From positions 9,493,611-9,557,610 of the forward strand of contig NC_057751.1 in NCBI RefSeq assembly GCF_004010195.1: DNA of 64,000 nt. The letters run 5' to 3'. A model generated the notes under the pieces. It searched no databases and was not told the origin of the DNA. It saw only the letters and a list, made by a program, of their open reading frames with translations. A program made the position numbers and the translations under genes. Below, one piece after another: positions 51,348-61,859 of this stretch (position 1 is its first letter; each line of letters starts with the position of its first letter). This DNA is from Chiloscyllium plagiosum. Its lineage: Eukaryota.

Positions 51348-53217
51348 CAGTGTTATCCACAGTCTAATGTAAAATCATACAAAAAATTCAAAGAGAAGAT
51401 AGAAAAAGTGGATATGTTGAAAATTCAAACAAACCACCCGGTATCAAAATGAGGAAGGACAGGTTCTTAAAGTGATAAAGAAACACATCTGGAAGATTTT
51501 GGTTACTCATCACAACACTAATTAATTCTCTGCTTTTTGTTTTATCACTACTGATGATTTGCTGTGCATTCATTGCAGTTTATTATTTTTGTAAGAGCAA
51601 ATTATCTCATAGAAGTATGAGCATAAATCATATTAGTAGATCACCCTTGAAAGTTGTTAAACATCCCAAGCATCTTCACAACAGCATGATAAAACAAACT
51701 ATGAGCTAAATAGCAATGTATTTGAACATCACACAAATTGCTTTGTTCAAGAGCTGGGCACAGGAACCTTGCAAGCTCACAACACTGAAGGAGGCTAATC
51801 TGTCCATCAAGTGCATGTTGGCTCTCTGCAAATGCTTTTCAGCTTGACTTTTGTCCTGCAAACATTTTGTTTGCACCTTATCCACTCCCTTATGAAAGCC
51901 ACAATTTTATTTGCCTTGAATTTGAAATGCACTGCCTGAGAATGTGGTGGAGGCAATCGCTGGCAAAATAGCTTTTCTTGTAGTTTTTTTAAGCTATTCC
52001 ATTCAACCACTGTCATGTGTTCCTCAATCCTTCTGACTCGCATTTTCTACATCTATTCTATCTAGACATCTCATGTTTGTGGACACCTCTTAGAAAAATC
52101 TCCCCCAGAAGAAAAAAAATCCAATCTTTCCATGGAAATGAAGTATCTTAACCTTGATATTGTTGTCTGCAATCTTTTCTACAATTGTCACATCATCCCT
52201 TTGGTGCCATGTCCATAAGTGGACAAAATTCCTAAGGTGAAGCCAAATGAAAGTTTTATAAATCTCATCACAACCTTGCCATTATATTCTTATTCTCTAT
52301 GCCAATTTGTGTCCAAGTGTTGTATCCTCAGCAAATTCGGCTTACTGTCCCCCCCCAGGATCAACTATAGTCTGAAAGTTGCTAACAGTTTGTTTCAGCC
52401 CAAAGCTGTTTGCATCAACAAGTTATCTTTTTTTGTCCATGTTCTCTTGCTTTCCTTTACTTACCTCTTGCCCTGAGCTTGGACAGGATCGGTGGTGGTG
52501 AGTGGACTCAGCACAGACCGAGTGAGCCCAGCATGGACCTCATGGCAGAGGTGAGTGAGCCCCGATGTACTTTTTTGGAGTACACACATTGACTTGGTAT
52601 CGGAATGGACGGCTGCTACATTGACAGAGACATTGTCAGTGAGGTCGGCCCAGCATTGAGAGATGGCCTCTGAGGATTGGCGACTTTGTGGTTGGTTAGT
52701 TCTGGTACAGGCTGTAGCAAGACCAAATTGGCTTAGCGGCGTAAGATGGCACCTGAAGAGTGGCGACTTTGATATTGGTTGATTCCAGTGGAGATGGCAG
52801 CAAGGTTGTGGACAAGGGATGGTGGTGCAGGCATCATTGATGATGAGCTGGCTCAGGATTGATGAACTCTCTTTTAGCTACAACGTTCTATCTTTTTCTG
52901 AAAACGATTCAAAATGGCACAGGATCGTGGCAACACTGGAAAAGCTTTTCACTGTATTTCTCACTGTAAAATACACGTGACATTCATTAAGTTACCATGA
53001 AGTGGGATCGAATTGGTGTAGTTGACCTGATCCAAGGAGACACCTCTGCTCCAGTCTCATCTCATCCCACTTCGCGACTGGAATCAAGCCCTGGTCGTTT
53101 GAACCTGGGCACGTCGTGTGCCAAATTTGAGAGAGAGAGTTGGGTGTTTCTGCAACCTGGCGTGCTTGAGGGCCATGTTTTGGAGAAGTGGTCACAGACC
53201 TCAGAAACAGGAGATTG

Positions 53218-53295
53218 CCTCAAAGGATGAAACTTTGACCCTTGCAGACGATTCCCTCAAAGGATGAAACTTTGACCCTTGCAGACGATTCCCTC
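53218..53295. repeat. Perfect 37-bp tandem duplication
   Basis: cctcaaaggatgaaactttgacccttgcagacgattc at 53218 and 53255. Confidence 0.95.
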
Positions 53296-53329
53296 GTGGT
53301 GAGTGGAGAGGGGAGAGGGGAGAGGGGCA

Positions 53330-54720
53330 CTTGGAGTGCAGGAGGCGGTGGAAGAAAGTGCTCTCTTGCTCCTCCTCTGACGAATCTGGGCTAAAAAGCG
53401 TCGTCAACATCCGGGTGGTGGGCCGGCTCTCCGACACGTCAGGACGCCTACAAAAGGCAACGAGGCGGGCGTTCGCGTTAGATGGCGGACAGCTGGTGGC
53501 CTGGAGAGAGAGTTTCTTAGCGACTCTGATACTCACTTTCGGCGCTGAGAAATATTGGCGGGATTGGAAGCGGCGGGAGGGGAAGACGAGGGACGGGCAA
53601 TTTAGCCTGCGTTGCGTGAGGCGCCGCATTTCCACACTCGGTCGGATTCGTGAGCCGAGAGCGTGGCTGGGCCCTGCCGGCTCCAACCCCCGACTGAATC
53701 CTCGCTTCGAGTCGTTTGAATTGGTGAGTCCGGTTGTGCCGGTCATCAAGGCTCGGCGGGAGGAAGGGAAGCCGAAAGGACGGGGGCTGGCAGAGAGCAG
53801 ATTATTTCGGTTAGGTCGCTGTACGTGGTGTCCTGTCGCACGCGGGCGCAGCTTATTCCGGAACAATCCGGATGCGGCCAGTCAGCCGTCGCGACGAAGG
53901 GGAGCCTCGGACTGGTGTCCAACTGACCAGGAGCGCGCGCCAGGGTATTGCAGGTCTGATGGATATATTTGGGGGGGGGGGGCGAGCGAGATGGTGAGAA
54001 AGGTTTGTGAGGGTCCGGTTCTTGAGTCTGCGCAGAGCAGGGCTCAGGGAGCGGACCGGTGCTGAGTCTGAGCCGAGGTGGCCCGGGATTCACGGGAATG
54101 GCGGGGAGAGAGAGAGAGAGAGAGACACCGTTCGACAGACAAGGACACCATTGACATTGCACCAACTCAGCCCGCCCTCCCCACCCGCCTGGCGTCGGCT
54201 GCCCTGCCGGTTGGGGCGTTGCGCCGCATTCATGTTGTCTCGGGAGCGGTCAAGTGGCATGGGGGAGTCTCTCGGGGGCGGGAAGGTGGTTGCGGGGAAT
54301 GGGGCGGAGGGTCTGGGCGCTAGTGCACCATGGCACCTTTGTGCTGGTCCTTACGGAATGCTCGTTGGGTTGTTCCGAACACATTATTGGGTTTCCCCTT
54401 CATTGGTGAGAGAACGGCGGGCGGCAGTCTATTTCCTGTTGACTCTGGACAAACGATTTTTAAAAAAAGAAGGCGCGAAAATGGGATGGCGCTCTCCATT
54501 TCAAACAGGAGACTTGAAAACCACAACCGTGCAGTCGATATTCGGGCTCTAATTCATTCCGGCCACTGCGGTCTACACTCGACGTTATAAATATTGATAA
54601 TGTTTCATCGAACGTCTGATTTCGCGATTAATAAACTTGCGTTAAGATCTGAGTCAAACGAGCTTTCATAGTTGGATGCAACCTGTTAACTATAGGGTTG
54701 CATCGTCGAGGGTTATGAGT
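53330..54720 (+). promoter_or_regulatory. CpG island / SLC20A1 promoter and non-coding first exon(s)
   Basis: Abrupt GC/CpG rise; GC-box-like gaggcgggc (about 53462), inverted CCAAT gattgg (about 53563), and donors TTG|gtgagt (53723) and ATG|gtgaga (53993). Confidence 0.85.
54106..54125 (+). repeat. (GA)10 microsatellite
   Basis: Direct reading. Confidence 0.9.
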
Positions 54721-55589
54721 GGTCTGATTTTTCTGCCGAAGCAGTAACATTTGTTTGAGGTTTGCTGATATGAACGTGCACCTACTGTTAGAAATCATTG
54801 ACAACAGTTAGATGTGGATACTCAACAATTCAAAACACCTTCACCTCGCCTTAATTATTCAATGATCACACTTTTACTGAGGCTGCTTCAGTTCAGCACT
54901 TGTTTTGCAAGAAAAATTATGTGGAACGTTTTCGGATGTTTATATATTTTTCAGAGATAAATGCAGTTCGTTGTTACTTTTCAGTTTGTTTCAAGAAGTT
55001 TTTTTGGAATCACATTAGGTGCAGTTGAGATAGAAATTCGCCATGCAATGGAAACATGGTCATAAGATGAGCTGGAAAAGGGTAGATGAGTGTGTCAATG
55101 AATGGTGTCGGATGTCTGAAGGACAAGGCTTTTGAGGGGGAGGGGTGGTCAGGGTGTGTAAAAAGGTAGATGAACCTTGAAGATGAGCTGAGAATCTCTA
55201 GCCAATCTCTATTCCAACACAGCCATGGCCAGACACTTTGATGCATGACATTTGGTGGGGAGTTGGCAAAAATTGCCATTTTATGTGCTGAATGTCATTT
55301 TTAAAGGTTTGGATTTGCTTGTTGCATTTGTTTTCACCAGTGTTCCTGAGATGCAATAAGCTTGTGTCTTCATTTTTGGTTTCTTTTTTCCCTGTTAGCC
55401 AGTTGTTAATGTTGGTTGTTCTCCCAGTCGTGGTTGCATTGTTGAGGTCTGGAAATGGACTTGGGTCTCATCAGTTTGAGTACATGTAGAGGTGCCACCT
55501 GTCGGCTCCTCTGCAAAGCCAGAGTCTGCTGGGTCTCAACTAAGCATTCAAAACCTTAAATTATGCCTTTCTGAGGTGAAACCTGTTCT

Positions 55590-56380
55590 AATGCCCAGCA
55601 GCCAGGTGAAATACAGTGTAGAAAAGTGTGAAGTCATGCACTTTGGTAGGAACAATAGAGGTATGGACTATGTTCTAAACTGGGCGTATATTCAGAAATC
55701 TGAAGTGCAAAGGGACTTATTGAGATTTGTTCAATGTAAATTTGCAGGTTGTCATGAGTTAGGAAAGTAAATACAATGCTGTCATTTGTCTTAAGACAAC
55801 TAGAATATAAAGGCAGGCATGTACATCTGAGGCTTCTTAAGACTTTGGTCAGACTGCATTTGGAGCATTGTGAGCCAATTTGGGCTGCATACCACAGGAA
55901 AGAAGTTTTGGCCTTGGAGCAGGTCCAGAGGAAGTTATGAGACTGATCCCGGTAATGAAAAGCTTCATAATTGAGCACTCTGGGACTATACTCAATAGAA
56001 GGGGGATCTGATTCAAACTTTGAGAATACTGAACGGCCTGGATAGAGTGGTCGTTGGGAAGATGTTTCCAGGGGAAGGATTGATGAGGACTCGAGGGCAC
56101 AGCCTTAGAGTAAAGGGAAACCCTTAGAACTGAGACAGGGATAAACCTCTTGAGCCAGAGAGTTGTTAATCTGTGGAATTCACTGCTACAGAAGGCTTTG
56201 AAGGCCAGGTAATTCTGTATATTTAAAATAGATAAGTTCTTGGTTGCCAAAGGAATTAAAGGAGGGAGTGGGGATAAAGTGGAAACATGGGGTTGAGGAG
56301 CATATCATCCATGATCAAATGGCAGAGCAGACTCCATGGGGTCGGATGGTCGAATTTGTGTTCCGATGTATTATGTTGTT
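55590..56380 (+). mobile_element. CR1 3' part, diverged, in SLC20A1 intron 1
   Basis: KCEVMHFGRNN, LVRLHLEHCEP and NLWNSL remnants. Confidence 0.8.
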
Positions 56381-56768
56381 TCTACCTGACATGTAAAACT
56401 CCAAATTTCCCAGTTTAATAATGACAATGGCATTTAAGGAAACTGTTCCAAAGTTTGTGGATGAAATCTATTTTTCTTCAGTCATGTGACTTTGTGACGC
56501 CAGTTTTGGTGGTTTTGAATTCTCTTCACTGATTGTGCTACTGTCGAGTTGGAAAAATACAGTACTGTACTTCAATTATTAGCAGTGAAGTCAGGCTTCA
56601 TTGTGCAAGTTTCGAAATTGTCACAATCTAATTTGCAGAGAAATGTGTCTTTAAGAGTCTTGATACTGTTCTGATCTTTGGACTTGGGTGACAATGAGTG
56701 GTCAAATAATCCATATTTGTTTGCTTTTTTCACAGGATGAAGAACATCCCAAATCTGCTGTATTCGCA

Positions 56769-56846
56769 ATGGATTTCACTTCAATCCTTCTAATTGTTGA
56801 CTGTTTTAAAAACCCTGCAAGACAGACTGTTAAGCGCAGTGGATAG
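56769..56846 (+). CDS. Upstream ORF in SLC20A1 5'UTR (25 aa, MDFTSILLIVDCFKNPARQTVKRSG)
   Basis: gcaATGG strong Kozak; lies after the acceptor ttttttcacag|G at 56736; TAG at 56844-46; followed by 169 nt without ATG before the main start. Confidence 0.6.
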   Translation: MDFTSILLIVDCFKNPARQTVKRSG

Positions 56847-57015
56847 CAATTACTGCTACACAACACTTGAGTGTAGTGCAGATTAATCTTAAGCTTTTAT
56901 TTAATCCAGTTATTTATTAGATATCTACATATTTTGTTACCTTATTTTGTATATTTAAGTCAATAGTATTTTTTTAAAACTCCATACCTCTGAAGCATTA
57001 CAAGCCTGGGTGAGC

Positions 57016-57304
57016 ATGGCGCTAGACGAGTACTTATGGATGGTTGTAGTTGGTTTCATCATTGCATTTATTCTGGCATTTTCTGTGGGAGCAAATGATG
57101 TTGCTAATTCATTTGGAACGGCTGTTGGTTCGGGAGTGCTGACGCTTCGAAAAGCCTGCATCTTGGCGACCATCTTTGAGACGGTGGGTTCTGTGTTGCT
57201 GGGTGCCAGAGTCAGTGAGACCATCCGTAAAGGAATAATTGATGTGGAGATGTTCAACTCGAGTCAAGAAGTGCTAATGGCTGGATCAGTCAGCTCCATG
57301 TTTG
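57016..57304 (+). CDS. SLC20A1: Sodium-dependent phosphate transporter 1 (PiT-1), first coding exon
   Basis: agc[44 protein letters not shown]...[37 protein letters not shown](G); GANDVAN signature; ends TTTG|gtaagt; in-frame stop upstream at 56956. Confidence 0.95.
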
Positions 57305-57570
57305 GTAAGTAACAAATGGTGGAATTAGCTTTTTTGTGCTCTGTGGTTTCATGTAAAAGCAGGGAAGTTAAGTATTCCATAGGGCTTTTAACAAGATCAT
57401 TTTGATGTAAATGTACCTGGGTTTTTTTTTCATCAATGTCATTAATTTACTTGCTGTCCTGGATATATCATATTACAGTTGATGAACGTTCTGGGAGTTG
57501 ATTGAAAGAAAAGGCAGAATCTCTACTGGCAGTGGAATAATGACATGAAATGTATTTTTGTCTTCGACAG

Positions 57571-57711
57571 GTTCTGCTGTCTGGCAGTTACTGGCTTCAT
57601 TTTTGAAGCTCCCTATATCTGGTACCCATTGCATTGTGGGTGCTACCGTTGGTTTCTGTTTGGTGGCTGCAGGTGCCCAAGGTGTGAAGTGGCTGGAACT
57701 GCTTAAGATAG
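57571..57711 (+). CDS. SLC20A1: SLC20A1 coding exon 2
   Basis: gacag|GTTCT...ATAG|gtaaat; 141 bp; [46 protein letters not shown]. Confidence 0.95.
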
Positions 57712-58361
57712 GTAAATTTGTAATTTTAGCTGATCTGTGGCTGTAAGACCACTTCAGATTTACACCCCATATTGCATCGTATTCTTGATGCATAAAACAA
57801 TATGGCTGATTGTTGACAATAGGACCAACTTAATGTCCTGATTAATTGTGCATGTTATTGTTAATTGTTGAAAGTGAATTATGAGAGACTGACAGATGGA
57901 GTGCTTGTGCTGCAAGAACTTGATTTATAGAGTGGGTCAGAGTTCGGCAAGAGTCCTACCCCAATTTTATTTTTGAACACTTTTACTCCAGCAAACTCCT
58001 CAAAAAATTCCTGTGATTGCTTCTAACCACTTGAAAATCATTAAATTGATGTTGATGTATTTTAATGAATATATGTTTGAAAAAAATAGTGACGCTTGTT
58101 GAATAGTTTTGGAGACTGTCCTTTGTTTGAGCGGTGTATACTCTTATATGGTGTTGGACAGCTTACACATTTGAGTATACTGAAACATGGACAATGTATT
58201 TTTCACAATTTGTTGCTACTTAACATTGCGAAATCACTTGCTGTGGTCACAAAGAACATCCCAGATGAAACCAATATTGAGGTTGCATGCATTTTCAGAA
58301 TTACTATGTATCTGTGTTGTAACCTTGGTTTTTTTTTTTCTCTCCTCTCCAATTTGGACAG

Positions 58362-58929: not shown

Positions 58930-60980
58930 ATCAGGACTCTGCTCACCTTTCGAGGACCCCTTCGCCCCCCTCCAACACACTCCATCCACCTGGACACCCT
59001 GTGCTGGCCGATTACCTGTCCTCGACCTCTTCGTTTCTAACTGCCGCCGGGACGTTAATCGCCTCAACCTGTCCAACCCCTCCCATTCACAACGCGCTAC
59101 CCTCGACTCCCTCTACTCCAATCCCAACCTCACCATCAAGCCAGCGTATAACGGGGTGCAGTGGTAGTCTGGCGCACTGTCCTCTACATCGCTGAAGCCA
59201 GACGCCAACTCGAAGACACTTCCTCCTACTGTCCCCTTGACCATGACCCCCCCCGCCACCCCATCACCAAACCATCATCTCCCAGACCACACAGAACCTC
59301 ATCACCTCAGGAGATCTCCCACTCTCCGCTTCCAATCTCATAGTCAGGGAACCCTGCATTGCCCGGTTCTACCTCCCTTCCCAAGATCCAAAGCCTGGCC
59401 GACCCATTGTCTCAGCATGCTCCTGCCCCGCTGAATTTATGTCTGTCTACCTACCTCAACACTGTCGTATCCCCCACCCCCAGTCCAGGAACTCCCCACA
59501 TAGGTTTGAGACACCACCCATGCCCTCCACCTCCTCCAAGACTTCCGTTTCCCCGGCCCCCAACACCTCACCTTCACCATGGATATCCAATCCCTCTACA
59601 CCTCCATTCGCCATGACCAAGGCCTCCAAGCCCTCCATTTCTTCCTCTCTCGACATCCCCAACAGTACCCTTCCACCATTCATTTGGCTGACCTCATCCT
59701 TAACAATTTCTCCTTCGAATCCTCCCACTTCCTCCAGACCAAAGGGTTAGCCACGGGCACCCGTATGGGCCCCAGCTATACCTGTCTCTTTGCTGGCTAC
59801 GTAGAACAGTGCATCTTCCGTAGTTACACTGGCACCAGTCCCCACCTCGTCCTCTGCTACATTGATGACTGCATTAGTGCCACTTCATGCTCCCGTGAGG
59901 AGGTTGAGCAATTCATCAACTTCACCAACACATTCAACCATGTCCTTAAATTTACCTGGACCATCTCTGACACCTCCCTCCCCTTCTGGGATCCCTCCAT
60001 CTCCATTAATGACGATCGACTTGACACCGTCATTTTTTTTTTTACAAACCCACTGACTCCCACAGCTACCTGGATTACATCTCTTCCCATCCTACCTCTT
60101 GCAAAAATGCCATCCCATATTTCCAATTCCTCTGCCTCTGCTATATCTGCTCCCAGGAAGACCAGTTCCACCACAGAATACACCAGATGGTCTCCTCCTT
60201 TAGACACCGCAATTTCCCAACCCTCCAACTGTTACAAGGACAGAACCCCCTGGTGCTCCCCTTCCACCCTACCAACCTTCGCACAAACCAAATCATCCGA
60301 CGACATTTCCACCACCTCCAAACGGACCCCACACCAGGGATATATTTCTCTCCCACCCCTTTCTGCCTTCTGCAAAGACCGTTCCCTCCGTGACTACCTG
60401 GTCGGGTCCATGCCCCCCCCCCCTCCAAATAACCCACCCTCCCGTCCTGGCACCTTCCCCTGCCACCGCAGGAATTGAAAAACTTGCGCCCACACCTCCT
60501 CCCTCACCTCCATCCAAGGCCTTAAAGGAGCCTTCCACATCCATCAAAGTTTTACCTGCACATCCACCAATATCATTTAGTGTATCCGTTGCTCCCGATG
60601 TGGTCTCCTCTACATTGGGGAGACTGGGCGCCTCCTAGCAGAGCGCTTTAGGGAACATCTCCGGGACACCCGCACCAATCAACCAAACCGCCCCGTGGCC
60701 CAACATTTCAACTCCCCCTCCCACTCTGCCGAGGATATGGAGGTGCTGGGCCTCCTCCACCGCNNNNNNNNNNNNNNNNNNNNNNNNNNNNNNNNNNNNN
60801 NCCCACCTCTCATTTATCTCTCCACCCTGCAGGCACTCTGCCTGTATTCCTGATGAAGGGCTTTTGCCCAAAACGCTGATTTTCCTTCTCCTCGGATACT
60901 GCCTGAACTGCTGTGCTTTTTCCAGCACCACTCTAATCCAGAATCTGGTTTCCAGCATCTGCAGTCATTGTTTTTACTTA
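58930..60980 (+). mobile_element. Penelope-like retroelement (RT + GIY-YIG + terminal repeat) in SLC20A1 intron
   Basis: ORF 59579-60478 has MDIQSLYTSI, GLATGTRMGPSY and YIDD; GIY-YIG CIRCSRCGLLYIGETGRLLAERFREH at about 60580-60660; terminal repeat with mutated hammerhead core at 60845-60960. Confidence 0.93.
60764..60801. other. Assembly gap (38 N)
   Basis: Run of N inside the Penelope element. Confidence 1.
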
Positions 60981-61859
60981 GTCTTATAATGCCAGGTGTC
61001 CATGGTGAGTTTTAATGTTGCCGTATTCAACAAGGTCACCAAGATATAGGATGATCTATTACATGACAAAATCGTGATTAACAGATTGTGTTGATAGTAG
61101 TATCTTGCTCCCATTGTCAAACGCTTTCTTTCAAGCAAAAACACCAATTTCACAGTTTATGAGCAATCTATTGTGATGCTGCTTGCGCATTTCTTTTGTT
61201 TGTGACCCTCCATTCTGATTCATAGTTTTGGAATGAAGTTTTATGATTTTGTTCAAAAATCATTTGCACTTTGGTCTTGAAACAGAAAGAAGACTGTTAG
61301 TATTTTGATATTAACTTCAGTGGCAGAGTTGCTGCAACAGAACTTGATCACCAGACTAGATAAGAGGCTCAAATTGGCTGTTGATCGTGTTTTGGTCTGT
61401 TACAGCTTTGGAGGAGAGTTTGTTGCATATTTCGATATGCAACTTTTGTTACCATTAGTCAAGGATGATGGTTCCTCTGAAGCTCTATCATCTTAGATGT
61501 TCGAATTGGATCAGCTGAGATGTTATTTCTGGTTTAAATGAAGAAACTATTTATAGGTTACATTTGCAGTAATCAGCAGCCTAACTTGGAATTACAGCAA
61601 GGGTTCTGCAATTACTTAGTTGCAAGAACATGGCTCCTCTCCTTCTCTTGTTGTGACCATCTCCAGTTCGTTAACCGTGAGGAATTCTGCTCCTTTTTCA
61701 CTCTGATATCATGTGCTAAAACTGTTAATTGCCCTAGTGTTTACATTGATGTATCATTGCAATGTAGCTTCCAGGTTGTCTACATCCTTCATTGGGGGGA
61801 ATTTGATGATGAAAATTGAATATTTCTCCAGCTGATGGTGAAATGATATTATTGTTTTT

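What the first reader, a model, noticed from the sequence alone, without database searches (positions are those of the whole stretch)
56736..57015. Candidate conserved-peptide uORF controlling the phosphate transporter SLC20A1
Seen: after the acceptor at 56736 the leader holds two overlapping uORFs, 56737-56793 (MKNIPNLLYSQWISLQSF*) and 56769-56846 (MDFTSILLIVDCFKNPARQTVKRSG*, strong Kozak gcaATGG). They are followed by a 169-nt U-rich, ATG-free spacer before the main ATG. Recalled and unverified: the human SLC20A1 leader starts the same way (GATGAA...) and has a same-length uORF, approximately MEFCSVLLALLSQRNPRQQMPIRSV*, giving the pattern M-[DE]-F-x-S-[IV]-L-L-x5-[KR]-N-P-x2-Q-x3-R-S-x-stop. 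Inference: length and residue conservation from shark to mammal would be typical of metabolite-sensing arrest peptides (cf. AMD1 MAGDIS, fungal arginine attenuator). This could be a translational Pi/inositol-pyrophosphate sensor or a micropeptide for PiT-1.
Basis: partly seen in the sequence, partly recalled or inferred. Interest (0 to 1): 0.85.

Follow-up and report, generated by a model that had tools for sequence, protein, structure and literature searches.

The report
Ancient uORF pair in shark SLC20A1
The messenger RNA leader of a shark phosphate-transporter gene (SLC20A1/PiT-1) carries two small overlapping upstream reading frames laid out as in the human gene, so this translational brake is probably about as old as jawed vertebrates, but nothing yet shows that its peptide senses phosphate.

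Summary
Spliced contigs from three organisms' runs join 53723 to 56736 (GT..AG), so exon 2 starts at 56736. It carries uORF1 (56737-56793, 18 codons), uORF2 (56769-56846, 25 codons, G at -3 and +4), a 169-nt ATG-free spacer (70% A+T) and the main ATG at 57016.

The gene is SLC20A1: the best named hit is a 100% identical shark "sodium-dependent phosphate transporter 1-like" protein.

It is Ribo-seq ORF c2riboseqorf74: 25 codons, 10 of 25 residues identical without gaps. In human it is overlapped by a 17-codon uORF starting 29 nt upstream (32 nt in shark) and followed by a 158-nt spacer. The cassette is therefore homologous from shark to human, although the human catalogue calls it "young, de novo".

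The arrest-peptide or phosphate-sensor reading is not supported:
- Published PhyloCSF in mammals is -344.
- Human genome missense counts are 9 observed against 11 expected.
- Conservation is strongest where the two uORFs overlap and includes synonymous sites.
- The SLC20A2 paralogue keeps a 23-24-codon uORF whose peptide drifts after the first four residues.

The most likely role is a leaky-scanning and reinitiation throttle. Mouse Slc20a1 depends on the reinitiation factor DENR.

I had no further vertebrate leader sequences, so codon-level tests remain undone.

The parts
53467..53723 (+). Exon 1, non-coding. This is the 3' part seen in a spliced contig; the true 5' end is unknown. It lies in a CpG island at about 53000-55000.
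   Evidence: X2 record 16 covers 53467-53722 and joins to 56735. The donor GT is at 53724-25. CpG observed/expected is 0.90-0.94.
53482..53520 (+). Exon-1 uORF, 12 codons plus stop (MADSWWPGERVS*).
   Evidence: Human SLC20A1 also has a short exon-1 ATG uORF (45 nt). No sequence similarity is claimed.
53724..56735 (+). Intron 1 (3012 nt, GT..AG).
   Evidence: joint table: the joint is seen in X1, X2 and X14.
56736..57304 (+). Exon 2: a 280-nt leader part plus the first 289 nt of the coding sequence.
   Evidence: The exon 2 -> exon 3 joint is 57304|57571 (GT..AG).
56737..56793 (+). uORF1, 18 codons, weak start context. Its stop lies inside codons 8-9 of uORF2.
   Evidence: The human counterpart is c2norep137: 17 codons, starting 29 nt before the human uORF2 start.
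56769..56846 (+). uORF2, 25 codons, strong start context. It is the orthologue of human c2riboseqorf74.
   Evidence: The peptide is identical (25 of 25) at the end of a Chiloscyllium punctatum gene model.
56847..57015 (+). Intercistronic spacer: 169 nt, 70% A+T, no ATG, weakly structured.
   Evidence: for composition and shuffles; the leader folds no better than shuffles (z = +1.15; 176 of 200 shuffles fold at least as well). The human spacer is 158 nt.
57016..57304 (+). Start of the SLC20A1 (PiT-1) coding sequence, PHO4 family.
   Evidence: PDB 6l85, E = 6.6e-18. PF01384; 100% identity to a shark 'sodium-dependent phosphate transporter 1-like' protein.
57571..57711 (+). Exon 3, coding.

Best explanation
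The start of SLC20A1 exon 2 carries an ancient cassette of two overlapping short uORFs that throttles synthesis of the phosphate transporter PiT-1.

Proposed mechanism:
- Scanning 40S subunits mostly pass the weak uORF1 AUG and start at the strong uORF2 AUG.
- After 25 codons they terminate. Part of them resume scanning through a long, AUG-free, poorly structured A/U-rich spacer, reload initiator tRNA and reinitiate at the main AUG. This step needs the DENR/MCTS1 recycling and reinitiation factors.
- Ribosomes that do use uORF1 read past the uORF2 start and terminate 25 nt behind it, so uORF1 acts as a bypass.

What is conserved is mainly the layout: the two starts, the uORF1 stop inside uORF2, the length of uORF2 and the spacer length.

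Shown here: the sequence anatomy, its presence in spliced mRNA, and its homology with the human cassette. Taken from papers: translation of the human uORF and DENR dependence of mouse Slc20a1. Inferred: that the shark cassette is translated and works the same way.
For: (1) Anatomy.

(2) The leader is in mature mRNA. A GT..AG joint 53723|56736 is seen in 3 of the 4 runs laid, from three organisms. One contig carries exons 1-3.

(3) Human SLC20A1 has the same layout.
- An ATG uORF of 78 nt lies at transcript positions 222-300 and the CDS starts at 458, giving a 158-nt spacer. Three of four Ribo-seq callers support the uORF (supplement of PMC10908861).
- An overlapping 54-nt uORF starts 29 nt upstream (supplement of PMC10032668).
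- A figure legend of PMC8262740 shows the AUG uORF in Ribo-seq data.

(4) Shark and human uORF2 have the same length, need no gap, and share 10 of 25 residues (binomial). Residues 9-25 alone share 5 of 17.

(5) The 3-nt difference between the two starts (32 against 29 nt) keeps uORF1 in the same frame, so it stops at the same place in uORF2.

(6) Mouse Slc20a1 loses translation efficiency on Denr knock-down: log2FC -0.37, adjusted P 0.0045, basal log2 TE -1.75 (named in the text). That paper's predictors of DENR dependence are several uORFs, AUG starts, strong context, a long uORF-to-CDS distance and low GC (section 20). All of them fit the shark leader.

(7) The leader is under constraint among related sharks. 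Organism D has 9 differences in 572 nt of exon 2 against 44 in 670 nt of the adjoining intron. Even if all 9 lay in the 280-nt leader, P(<=9) = 0.012.

(8) The leader is not more structured than shuffles and matches no Rfam family, which suits scanning.

(9) The paralogue SLC20A2 has a like layout. In the shark it has a 23-codon uORF with a strong context and 157 nt to the main ATG. In human it has a 24-codon uORF beginning with the same three residues.
Against: - There is no ribosome profiling or reporter data for any shark.
- Only two distant lineages were compared (hemiscylliid sharks and human), and human only as peptides and coordinates from supplements.
- The ATG-free spacer is only mildly unusual (about 5% of shuffles).
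- The positions of the 9 differences in organism D were not shown by the tool, so constraint on the uORFs themselves, as against the rest of the exon, is not resolved.
- The acceptor of the shark SLC20A2 leader exon is inferred from sequence only.
- The DENR effect in mouse is modest and is not mapped to this particular uORF.
- The residue pattern kept outside the overlap ([KR]-N-P, Q, R-S before the stop) is more than a pure 'layout only' model predicts.
Confidence: 0.7

Rival explanations
1. Peptide-dependent arrest uORF. The nascent uORF2 peptide stalls the ribosome at or near its stop codon in response to a metabolite (phosphate, inositol pyrophosphate or another), blocking scanning to the PiT-1 start.
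For: - The length is identical and no indel has occurred in 25 codons, while both flanks have length changes: 32 against 29 nt and 169 against 158 nt.
- Residues kept outside the overlap with uORF1 are [KR]-N-P at 14-16, Q19 and R-S at 23-24 just before the stop, 5 of 17 identical. By hand, binomial P is about 0.005 at a match rate of 0.07.
- All four uORFs (shark and human, SLC20A1 and SLC20A2) share a hydrophobic first half and a polar S/T/Q/R/N-rich tail.
- The exome-based missense count for the human ORF is low, 6 against 20.
Against: - PhyloCSF is -27.8 in primates and -344.4 in mammals, and the human catalogue finds no significant amino-acid conservation in non-primate mammals.
- Genome-based missense counts are 9 against 11 and all SNVs 27 against 20, so there is no constraint. 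The exome figure may reflect poor exome coverage of 5' UTRs, which is my inference.
- Residues 9-13 and 17-22 are almost all different.
- In the first 8 codons, 3 of the 4 identical degenerate codons are also identical at the third position. I deduced this by hand from the two overlapping human peptides. It points to nucleotide or dual-frame constraint.
- The SLC20A2 uORF peptide is not conserved between shark and human beyond M-E-C-[VI].
- The conserved small-ORF lists of PMC4568590 do not contain this uORF in the files that could be searched.
- No paper found links the uORF to phosphate.
Confidence: 0.13
2. A conserved nucleotide element (a protein-binding site, splicing enhancer at the exon start, or DNA-level regulatory element) that only happens to contain open frames. 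Translation of the uORFs would be incidental.
For: - The whole leader, spacer included, is constrained between related sharks.
- Synonymous positions are conserved in the overlap (hand deduction).
- PhyloCSF is negative.
Against: - Both start codons, the uORF1 stop, the frame relation and the uORF2 length are all kept from shark to human.
- The human uORF is translated according to several Ribo-seq callers.
- There is no stable fold and no Rfam match.
Confidence: 0.1
3. uORF2 encodes a stable micropeptide with a function of its own, for instance a small membrane-associated partner of PiT-1.
For: The first half is hydrophobic and the tail basic or polar in both species.
Against: - The human ORF was detected in 0 mass-spectrometry studies in the catalogue.
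- At 25 residues it is too short for a membrane span plus anything else.
- PhyloCSF is negative and there is no missense constraint in genomes.
- A phmmer search of 1.84 billion representatives gave 3 hits at E <= 0.001. One is a shark gene model that reads the same leader. The other two are translated repeat arrays, which I take to be CRISPR arrays.
Confidence: 0.04
4. Chance open frames in an A/T-rich leader, with no homology to the human uORFs.
For: Short ORFs are frequent in any leader. The ATG-free spacer is only mildly unusual.
Against: The length is the same, 10 of 25 residues are identical without gaps, the overlapping partner uORF is the same, and the spacer is similar.
Confidence: 0.02

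Closest known systems
Human SLC20A1 Ribo-seq ORFs c2riboseqorf74 (25 codons) and c2norep137 (17 codons). Read in the supplementary table of PMC10032668, the supplementary table of PMC10908861 and a figure legend of PMC8262740.
   Same: Same gene, two overlapping ATG uORFs, and a 78-nt uORF2. 10 of 25 residues are identical. The uORF1 stop lies at the same place inside uORF2. The spacer to the CDS is 158 nt against 169 nt. There is also a short ATG uORF in exon 1.
   Different: uORF1 is one codon longer in the shark. The central and distal residues differ. The human ORF is catalogued as 'primatomorpha - young, de_novo_ORF'; the shark copy contradicts the 'de novo' part. Whether human exon 2 also begins directly with the uORF1 ATG was not checked.
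Mouse Slc20a1 as a DENR-dependent reinitiation target (PMC6547434; passages, section 20 and a supplement row read).
   Same: It is the orthologous gene. The shark leader has every feature that paper found predictive: several AUG uORFs, a strong context, a long uORF-to-CDS distance and low GC.
   Different: The mouse uORF sequences were not seen. DENR dependence has not been tested in any shark. The effect was not mapped to a particular uORF.
SLC20A2 uORF: human c8riboseqorf45 (24 codons, PMC10032668 supplement) and the uORF in the shark's own SLC20A2 leader (23 codons, locus L005).
   Same: The position is the same, early in the leader exon that holds the main ATG. The start context is strong and the first residues are M-E-C (M-[DE]-F in SLC20A1). 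Length is 23-25 codons, with 157 nt to the main ATG in the shark. This suggests the uORF predates the SLC20A1/SLC20A2 duplication.
   Different: Peptide similarity between the shark's two uORFs is marginal (583 of 20000 shuffles score as well). Shark and human SLC20A2 peptides agree only in the first four residues. The overlapping partner uORF starts downstream, not upstream. The splice acceptor of the shark SLC20A2 leader is inferred only.
Sequence-dependent arrest uORFs: the fungal arginine attenuator peptide and AMD1 MAGDIS (recalled, no call).
   Same: A short uORF upstream of a metabolic or transport gene, with a few residues kept near the stop codon.
   Different: Those show strong peptide-level conservation and proven ligand-dependent stalling. 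Here the codon-level scores are negative and no stalling or ligand is known.
Delayed-reinitiation leaders of GCN4 and ATF4 (recalled, no call).
   Same: A first uORF that lets ribosomes get past a second, more inhibitory one. Output depends on reinitiation over a spacer.
   Different: Here uORF1 overlaps uORF2 instead of preceding it. uORF2 ends 169 nt before the CDS rather than overlapping it, so it need not be a dead end. No link to eIF2 phosphorylation has been shown.

Membership tests
SLC20A1 (PiT-1) orthologue | The main ORF belongs to the PHO4/PiT family. | tested here: met
   PF01384 matches the exon at 86.8 bits, over the cut-off. PDB 6l85 phosphate transporter, E = 6.6e-18.
SLC20A1 (PiT-1) orthologue | It is closer to transporter 1 than to transporter 2, and a separate SLC20A2 gene is present. 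| tested here: met
   the best hit is 100% identical, 'sodium-dependent phosphate transporter 1-like [Hemiscyllium ocellatum]'. Among the 120 listed, only 2 names say transporter 2; there is exactly one other PHO4 gene, on contig C2, 81% identical in this exon. No tree was built.
Orthologue of human uORF c2riboseqorf74 | Same gene, same position in the leader exon, same frame relation to a partner uORF, and similar sequence. | tested here: met
   25 against 25 codons, 10 of 25 identical, the partner uORF starts 32 against 29 nt upstream, and the spacer is 169 against 158 nt.
Conserved-peptide uORF (CPuORF) | The uORF is present at the homologous position in distant taxa. | tested here: met
   Sharks and human only. 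No other vertebrate leader could be fetched.
Conserved-peptide uORF (CPuORF) | The amino-acid sequence is conserved beyond what nucleotide conservation explains (codon-level signature, dN/dS below 1). | tested here: inconclusive
   Against: published PhyloCSF of -344 in mammals, genome missense 9 against 11, and synonymous sites conserved in the overlap (hand deduction). For: 5 of 17 identical residues outside the overlap, and no indel. I had no nucleotide alignment of my own. The CPuORF list of PMC7530721 could not be read.
Conserved-peptide uORF (CPuORF) | Repression depends on the peptide sequence (frameshift or missense mutants relieve it). | not testable with these tools
   This needs reporter assays.
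Reinitiation-permissive uORF / DENR-MCTS1 target | A short AUG uORF in a strong context that ends well upstream of the CDS, followed by an AUG-free spacer. | tested here: met
   25 codons, G at -3 and +4, a 169-nt spacer with 0 ATG; the leader is unstructured.
Reinitiation-permissive uORF / DENR-MCTS1 target | Main-ORF translation falls when DENR is depleted. | not testable with these tools
   Shown only for mouse Slc20a1.
Metabolite-sensing arrest peptide | Ribosome stalling at a defined codon, dependent on a ligand. | not testable with these tools
   No stalling or phosphate data were found.

The most novel reading that the evidence does not exclude
The 23-25-codon uORF is a peptide-dependent sensor that predates the SLC20A1/SLC20A2 duplication. 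Its nascent chain (hydrophobic head, [KR]-N-P, R-S before the stop) would stall the terminating ribosome in response to cellular phosphate status, or to a phosphate-derived signal such as an inositol pyrophosphate. PiT transporter synthesis would then be set translationally in all jawed vertebrates.
Probability: 0.1. Interest if true: 0.85.

Novelty: new member of a known kind. Interest (0 to 1): 0.5.

Why it matters
PiT-1 is a main cellular phosphate importer and is tied to mineralisation; its paralogue SLC20A2 is tied to brain calcification. How cells set its level is poorly understood.

A uORF cassette kept in layout from sharks to humans suggests that translational throttling of PiT-1 is an old, selected feature. 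That makes the leader a defined target for reporter and Ribo-seq tests at different phosphate levels.

It also corrects the age of a catalogued human Ribo-seq ORF. c2riboseqorf74 is listed as 'young, de novo', but it has a same-length orthologue in cartilaginous fish. Short ORFs can therefore fail mammal-only similarity tests while being ancient.

The parallel uORF in SLC20A2 hints that the arrangement predates the duplication of the two transporter genes.

I found no paper whose main text discusses this conservation. The one systematic list of conserved-peptide uORFs in animals (PMC7530721) could not be read, so it may already be listed there.

Tried and rejected
- RNA runs: no RNA holder is listed on record, so the kinds of the runs are guesses. 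I relied on spliced joints instead.
No synonymous/non-synonymous count within sharks was possible.
- Protein database, 50-residue genomic ORF over uORF2: there were no hits at near lengths. At longer lengths, 1 of 13 candidates hit, a Chiloscyllium punctatum hypothetical protein that is a gene model reading the leader.
- phmmer of the 36 exon-2 residues against 1.84 billion representatives gave 3 hits at E <= 0.001. They are the same shark model and two proteins that I take to be translated CRISPR-type repeat arrays, which I rejected as spurious.
- Metagenome scan with the exon-2 protein, hoping for vertebrate host contigs that carry the leader: 80 loci were kept, the best 62% identical and none vertebrate-like. 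They were not used.
- Earlier scan notes gave nothing relevant.
- Third SLC20 gene at the C3 copy: rejected, since PF01384 exons lie only on C42 and C2.
- Leader derived from a transposon: rejected. The C3 copy is itself an insert inside a repeat, and only two copies exist.
- Structured RNA element: the leader folds no better than shuffles and matches no Rfam family.
- An alternative acceptor near 56995/57004, which would make the uORFs intronic, was considered because several runs held 0.55 of the words. It was not seen among the joints shown (15 shown, 27 not shown). The 0.55 share fits the 9 differences of organism D.
- Conserved small-ORF lists of PMC4568590 hold only CDS-overlapping SLC20A1 entries; 4 further files and 3 picture-only PDFs were not searched.
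- The PMC7530721 supplement is unreadable.

Full report
**What is in the sequence.** The window is G000:C42:9493611-9557610 of a 3.56-Gb vertebrate genome.

At 56734-56735 an AG follows a pyrimidine-rich tract, 16 of 20 bases. The next bases read G|ATG. The parts are as follows:
- uORF1 is 56737-56793 (MKNIPNLLYSQWISLQSF*).
- uORF2 is 56769-56846 (MDFTSILLIVDCFKNPARQTVKRSG*).
- The main ATG is at 57016.
- In the spliced mRNA the contexts are aattggATGA for uORF1 (weak), ttcgcaATGG for uORF2 (strong) and gtgagcATGG for the main ORF (strong).
- The spacer 56847-57015 is 169 nt, 40% T and 30% A, without ATG.

The lack of ATG is only mildly unusual. 1095 of 20000 mononucleotide shuffles and 37 of 2531 intron windows of 169 nt also lack ATG.

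**Is it in the mRNA?** I laid Logan contigs of four runs from four organism labels on 52501-58000.
- A joint 53722/3 -> 56735/6 (skips 3012 nt, GT..AG) is present in X1 (organism A), X2 (B) and X14 (D).
- X6 (C) only covers 56748-57215 and 57628-57711.
- A second joint, 57304|57571 (GT..AG), links exon 2 to exon 3.
- One X2 contig of 1483 nt carries exon 1 (53467-53722), the whole of exon 2 with no difference, and exon 3.

The runs are not on record as RNA, but the GT..AG skips show spliced RNA. Exon 1 lies in a CpG island and holds a further 12-codon ATG uORF at 53482.

**Which gene?**
- The exon matches PF01384 and a solved phosphate transporter.
- The best named database hit is 100% identical: 'sodium-dependent phosphate transporter 1-like isoform X1 [Hemiscyllium ocellatum]'. 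Of the 120 listed hits, only 2 names say transporter 2.
- The genome has exactly one other PHO4 gene, on contig C2, 81% identical in this exon. I take it to be SLC20A2. No tree was built, and the residue resemblance to human SLC20A2 is recalled.

**The human counterpart.**
- The supplementary table of PMC10032668 lists c2riboseqorf74 of SLC20A1 as MEFCSVLLALLSQRNPRQQMPIRSV* (78 nt). It also lists an overlapping c2norep137 (17 codons) that starts 29 nt upstream.
- The supplement of PMC10908861 places the 78-nt ATG uORF at transcript positions 222-300 and the CDS at 458, so the spacer is 158 nt. It also lists a 45-nt ATG uORF near the cap. Three of four callers support the 78-nt uORF.
- A figure legend of PMC8262740 shows an AUG uORF of this transcript in Ribo-seq.

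Shark against human uORF2:
- The length is the same and there is no gap.
- 10 of 25 residues are identical: M1, F3, S5, L7, L8, N15, P16, Q19, R23, S24.
- Four more are conservative: D/E, I/V, V/L, K/R.
- For 9 of 24 non-start residues, binomial P is 6e-6 to 1.4e-4.

The 32 against 29 nt between the two starts differ by one codon. uORF1 therefore keeps its frame and stops at the same place inside uORF2 (W-x-S-x-x-x-F-stop in both). The cassette is homologous across roughly the age of jawed vertebrates (the age is general knowledge).

**Peptide or layout?** Several results argue against selection on the peptide as such.
- The human catalogue gives PhyloCSF of -27.8 in primates and -344.4 in mammals, and classes the ORF 'primatomorpha - young, de_novo_ORF'. 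From the passages I read, 'young' means no significant amino-acid similarity in non-primate mammals, and primatomorpha is the oldest level at which ORF structure was scored. The class does not exclude an older ORF, but the 'de novo' label conflicts with the shark copy.
- PMC11909976 counts 27 observed against 20 expected SNVs, and in genomes 9 against 11 missense variants (upper bound 1.42, not constrained). Only the exome count, 6 against 20, is flagged.
- The two overlapping human peptides fix 23 of the first 24 bases of the human uORF by hand. 16 of those 23 equal the shark's. Of the four identical residues with degenerate codons there, three also share the third base. That is what dual-frame or nucleotide-level constraint predicts, not peptide-only constraint.
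- Residues 9-13 and 17-22 are almost all different.

One result points the other way. Codons 9-25 still share 5 of 17 residues, have no indel, and end R-S-x-stop in both species. Some constraint beyond the overlap therefore exists.

**Sharks among themselves.**
- A Chiloscyllium punctatum 'hypothetical protein' (140 aa) ends with the exon 1-exon 2 frame and has uORF2 25 of 25 identical. The residue before the start differs, and the exon-1 part is much diverged.
- Organism D differs at 9 of 572 positions in exon 2, against 44 of 670 in the adjoining intron. Even if all 9 lay in the leader, that is fewer than expected (P = 0.012).
- The whole leader is thus constrained. The positions of the 9 differences were not shown.

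**The paralogue.** Upstream of the shark SLC20A2 start (L005, minus strand; the acceptor is inferred from sequence only) lies a 23-codon uORF (MECIHLIIPSLKNFINTTQRSIS*). It has a strong context and 157 nt to the main ATG, plus a 13-codon overlapping uORF. Human SLC20A2 has a 24-codon uORF beginning M-E-C-V. Similarity between the shark's two uORF peptides is marginal: 583 of 20000 shuffles score as well. Shark and human SLC20A2 peptides agree only at the first four residues. Position, start and length are kept while the peptide drifts. That fits a layout-level function and hints that the uORF predates the gene duplication.

**Mechanism.**
- Mouse Slc20a1 is named among DENR-regulated transcripts. 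Its translation efficiency falls on Denr knock-down: log2FC -0.37, adjusted P 0.0045, basal log2 TE -1.75.
- That study found DENR dependence predicted by the number of uORFs, AUG starts, strong context, a long uORF-to-CDS distance and low GC (section 20). The shark leader has all of these.
- The leader folds no better than shuffles (z = +1.15; 176 of 200 fold at least as well) and matches no Rfam family.

I therefore read the cassette as a leaky-scanning and reinitiation throttle. uORF2 captures most ribosomes. The spacer allows reinitiation. uORF1 lets a minority bypass the uORF2 start. Translation and reinitiation in the shark are inferred, not shown.

**The copy on contig C3.** A 232-nt stretch at C3:68154474-68154692 is 75% identical to 56743-56973, which is the leader only.
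- It has lost both ATGs and carries indels.
- No PHO4 exon or CpG island is nearby.
- Its flanks are the two halves of an interspersed repeat that is contiguous in at least five other places. So a piece matching the non-coding part of exon 2 was inserted into a repeat.
- The leader is therefore not transposon-derived. How the copy arose is unresolved.

**Limits.** I could not obtain leader sequences from any other vertebrate. The human data are peptides and coordinates from supplements. The list of animal conserved-peptide uORFs in PMC7530721 could not be read. The conserved small-ORF lists of PMC4568590 that could be searched hold no SLC20A1 uORF. No paper in the searched library discusses conservation or phosphate control of this uORF.

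**Verdict.** The orthology with the human uORF is confirmed and is the notable result. The arrest-peptide or phosphate-sensor reading remains a low-probability speculation.

Noticed in passing
L002 1470-1775 (G000:C3:68154443-68154748): A piece of about 290 nt is 75% identical to the non-coding part of SLC20A1 exon 2. Homology starts within a few bases of the exon start and fades about 40 nt before the main ATG. The piece sits as an insert inside an interspersed repeat. Both uORF ATGs are lost. There is no poly(A) and no clear target-site duplication.
   Followed up: partly
L005 1792-2060, minus strand (G000:C2, upstream of the SLC20A2 start): The shark SLC20A2 leader has its own 23-codon uORF (strong context, 157 nt before the main ATG) and an overlapping 13-codon uORF. 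Its first residues and its length resemble the human SLC20A2 uORF c8riboseqorf45.
   Followed up: partly
window 53267-53723 joined to 56736-56846: The frame of uORF2 is open for 152 codons upstream through exon 1 without any ATG. In Chiloscyllium punctatum the same frame is annotated as hypothetical protein chiPu_0001466 (140 aa). That is most likely a gene-model artefact of the GC-rich leader.
   Followed up: partly
window 55445-56364 (intron 1): Summed contig depth reaches hundreds to over a thousand in three runs, with many loose ends and internal joints. This is an abundant, transcribed interspersed repeat inside intron 1.
   Followed up: no
window 53940 -> 56735: In organism D, one contig joins 53940 to the same acceptor with 5 extra letters between. 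This may be an alternative donor or first exon.
   Followed up: no
window 59001-61000 and 60764-60801: There is a second GC-rich stretch (GC 0.51-0.55, CpG o/e about 0.5) inside the gene, and a run of 38 N.
   Followed up: no
proteins P0123 and P0124: Database 'proteins' made of repeated VSILVVVDCSRQ-type units, which look like translated CRISPR arrays, match the uORF2 core SILLIVDC by chance.
   Followed up: yes
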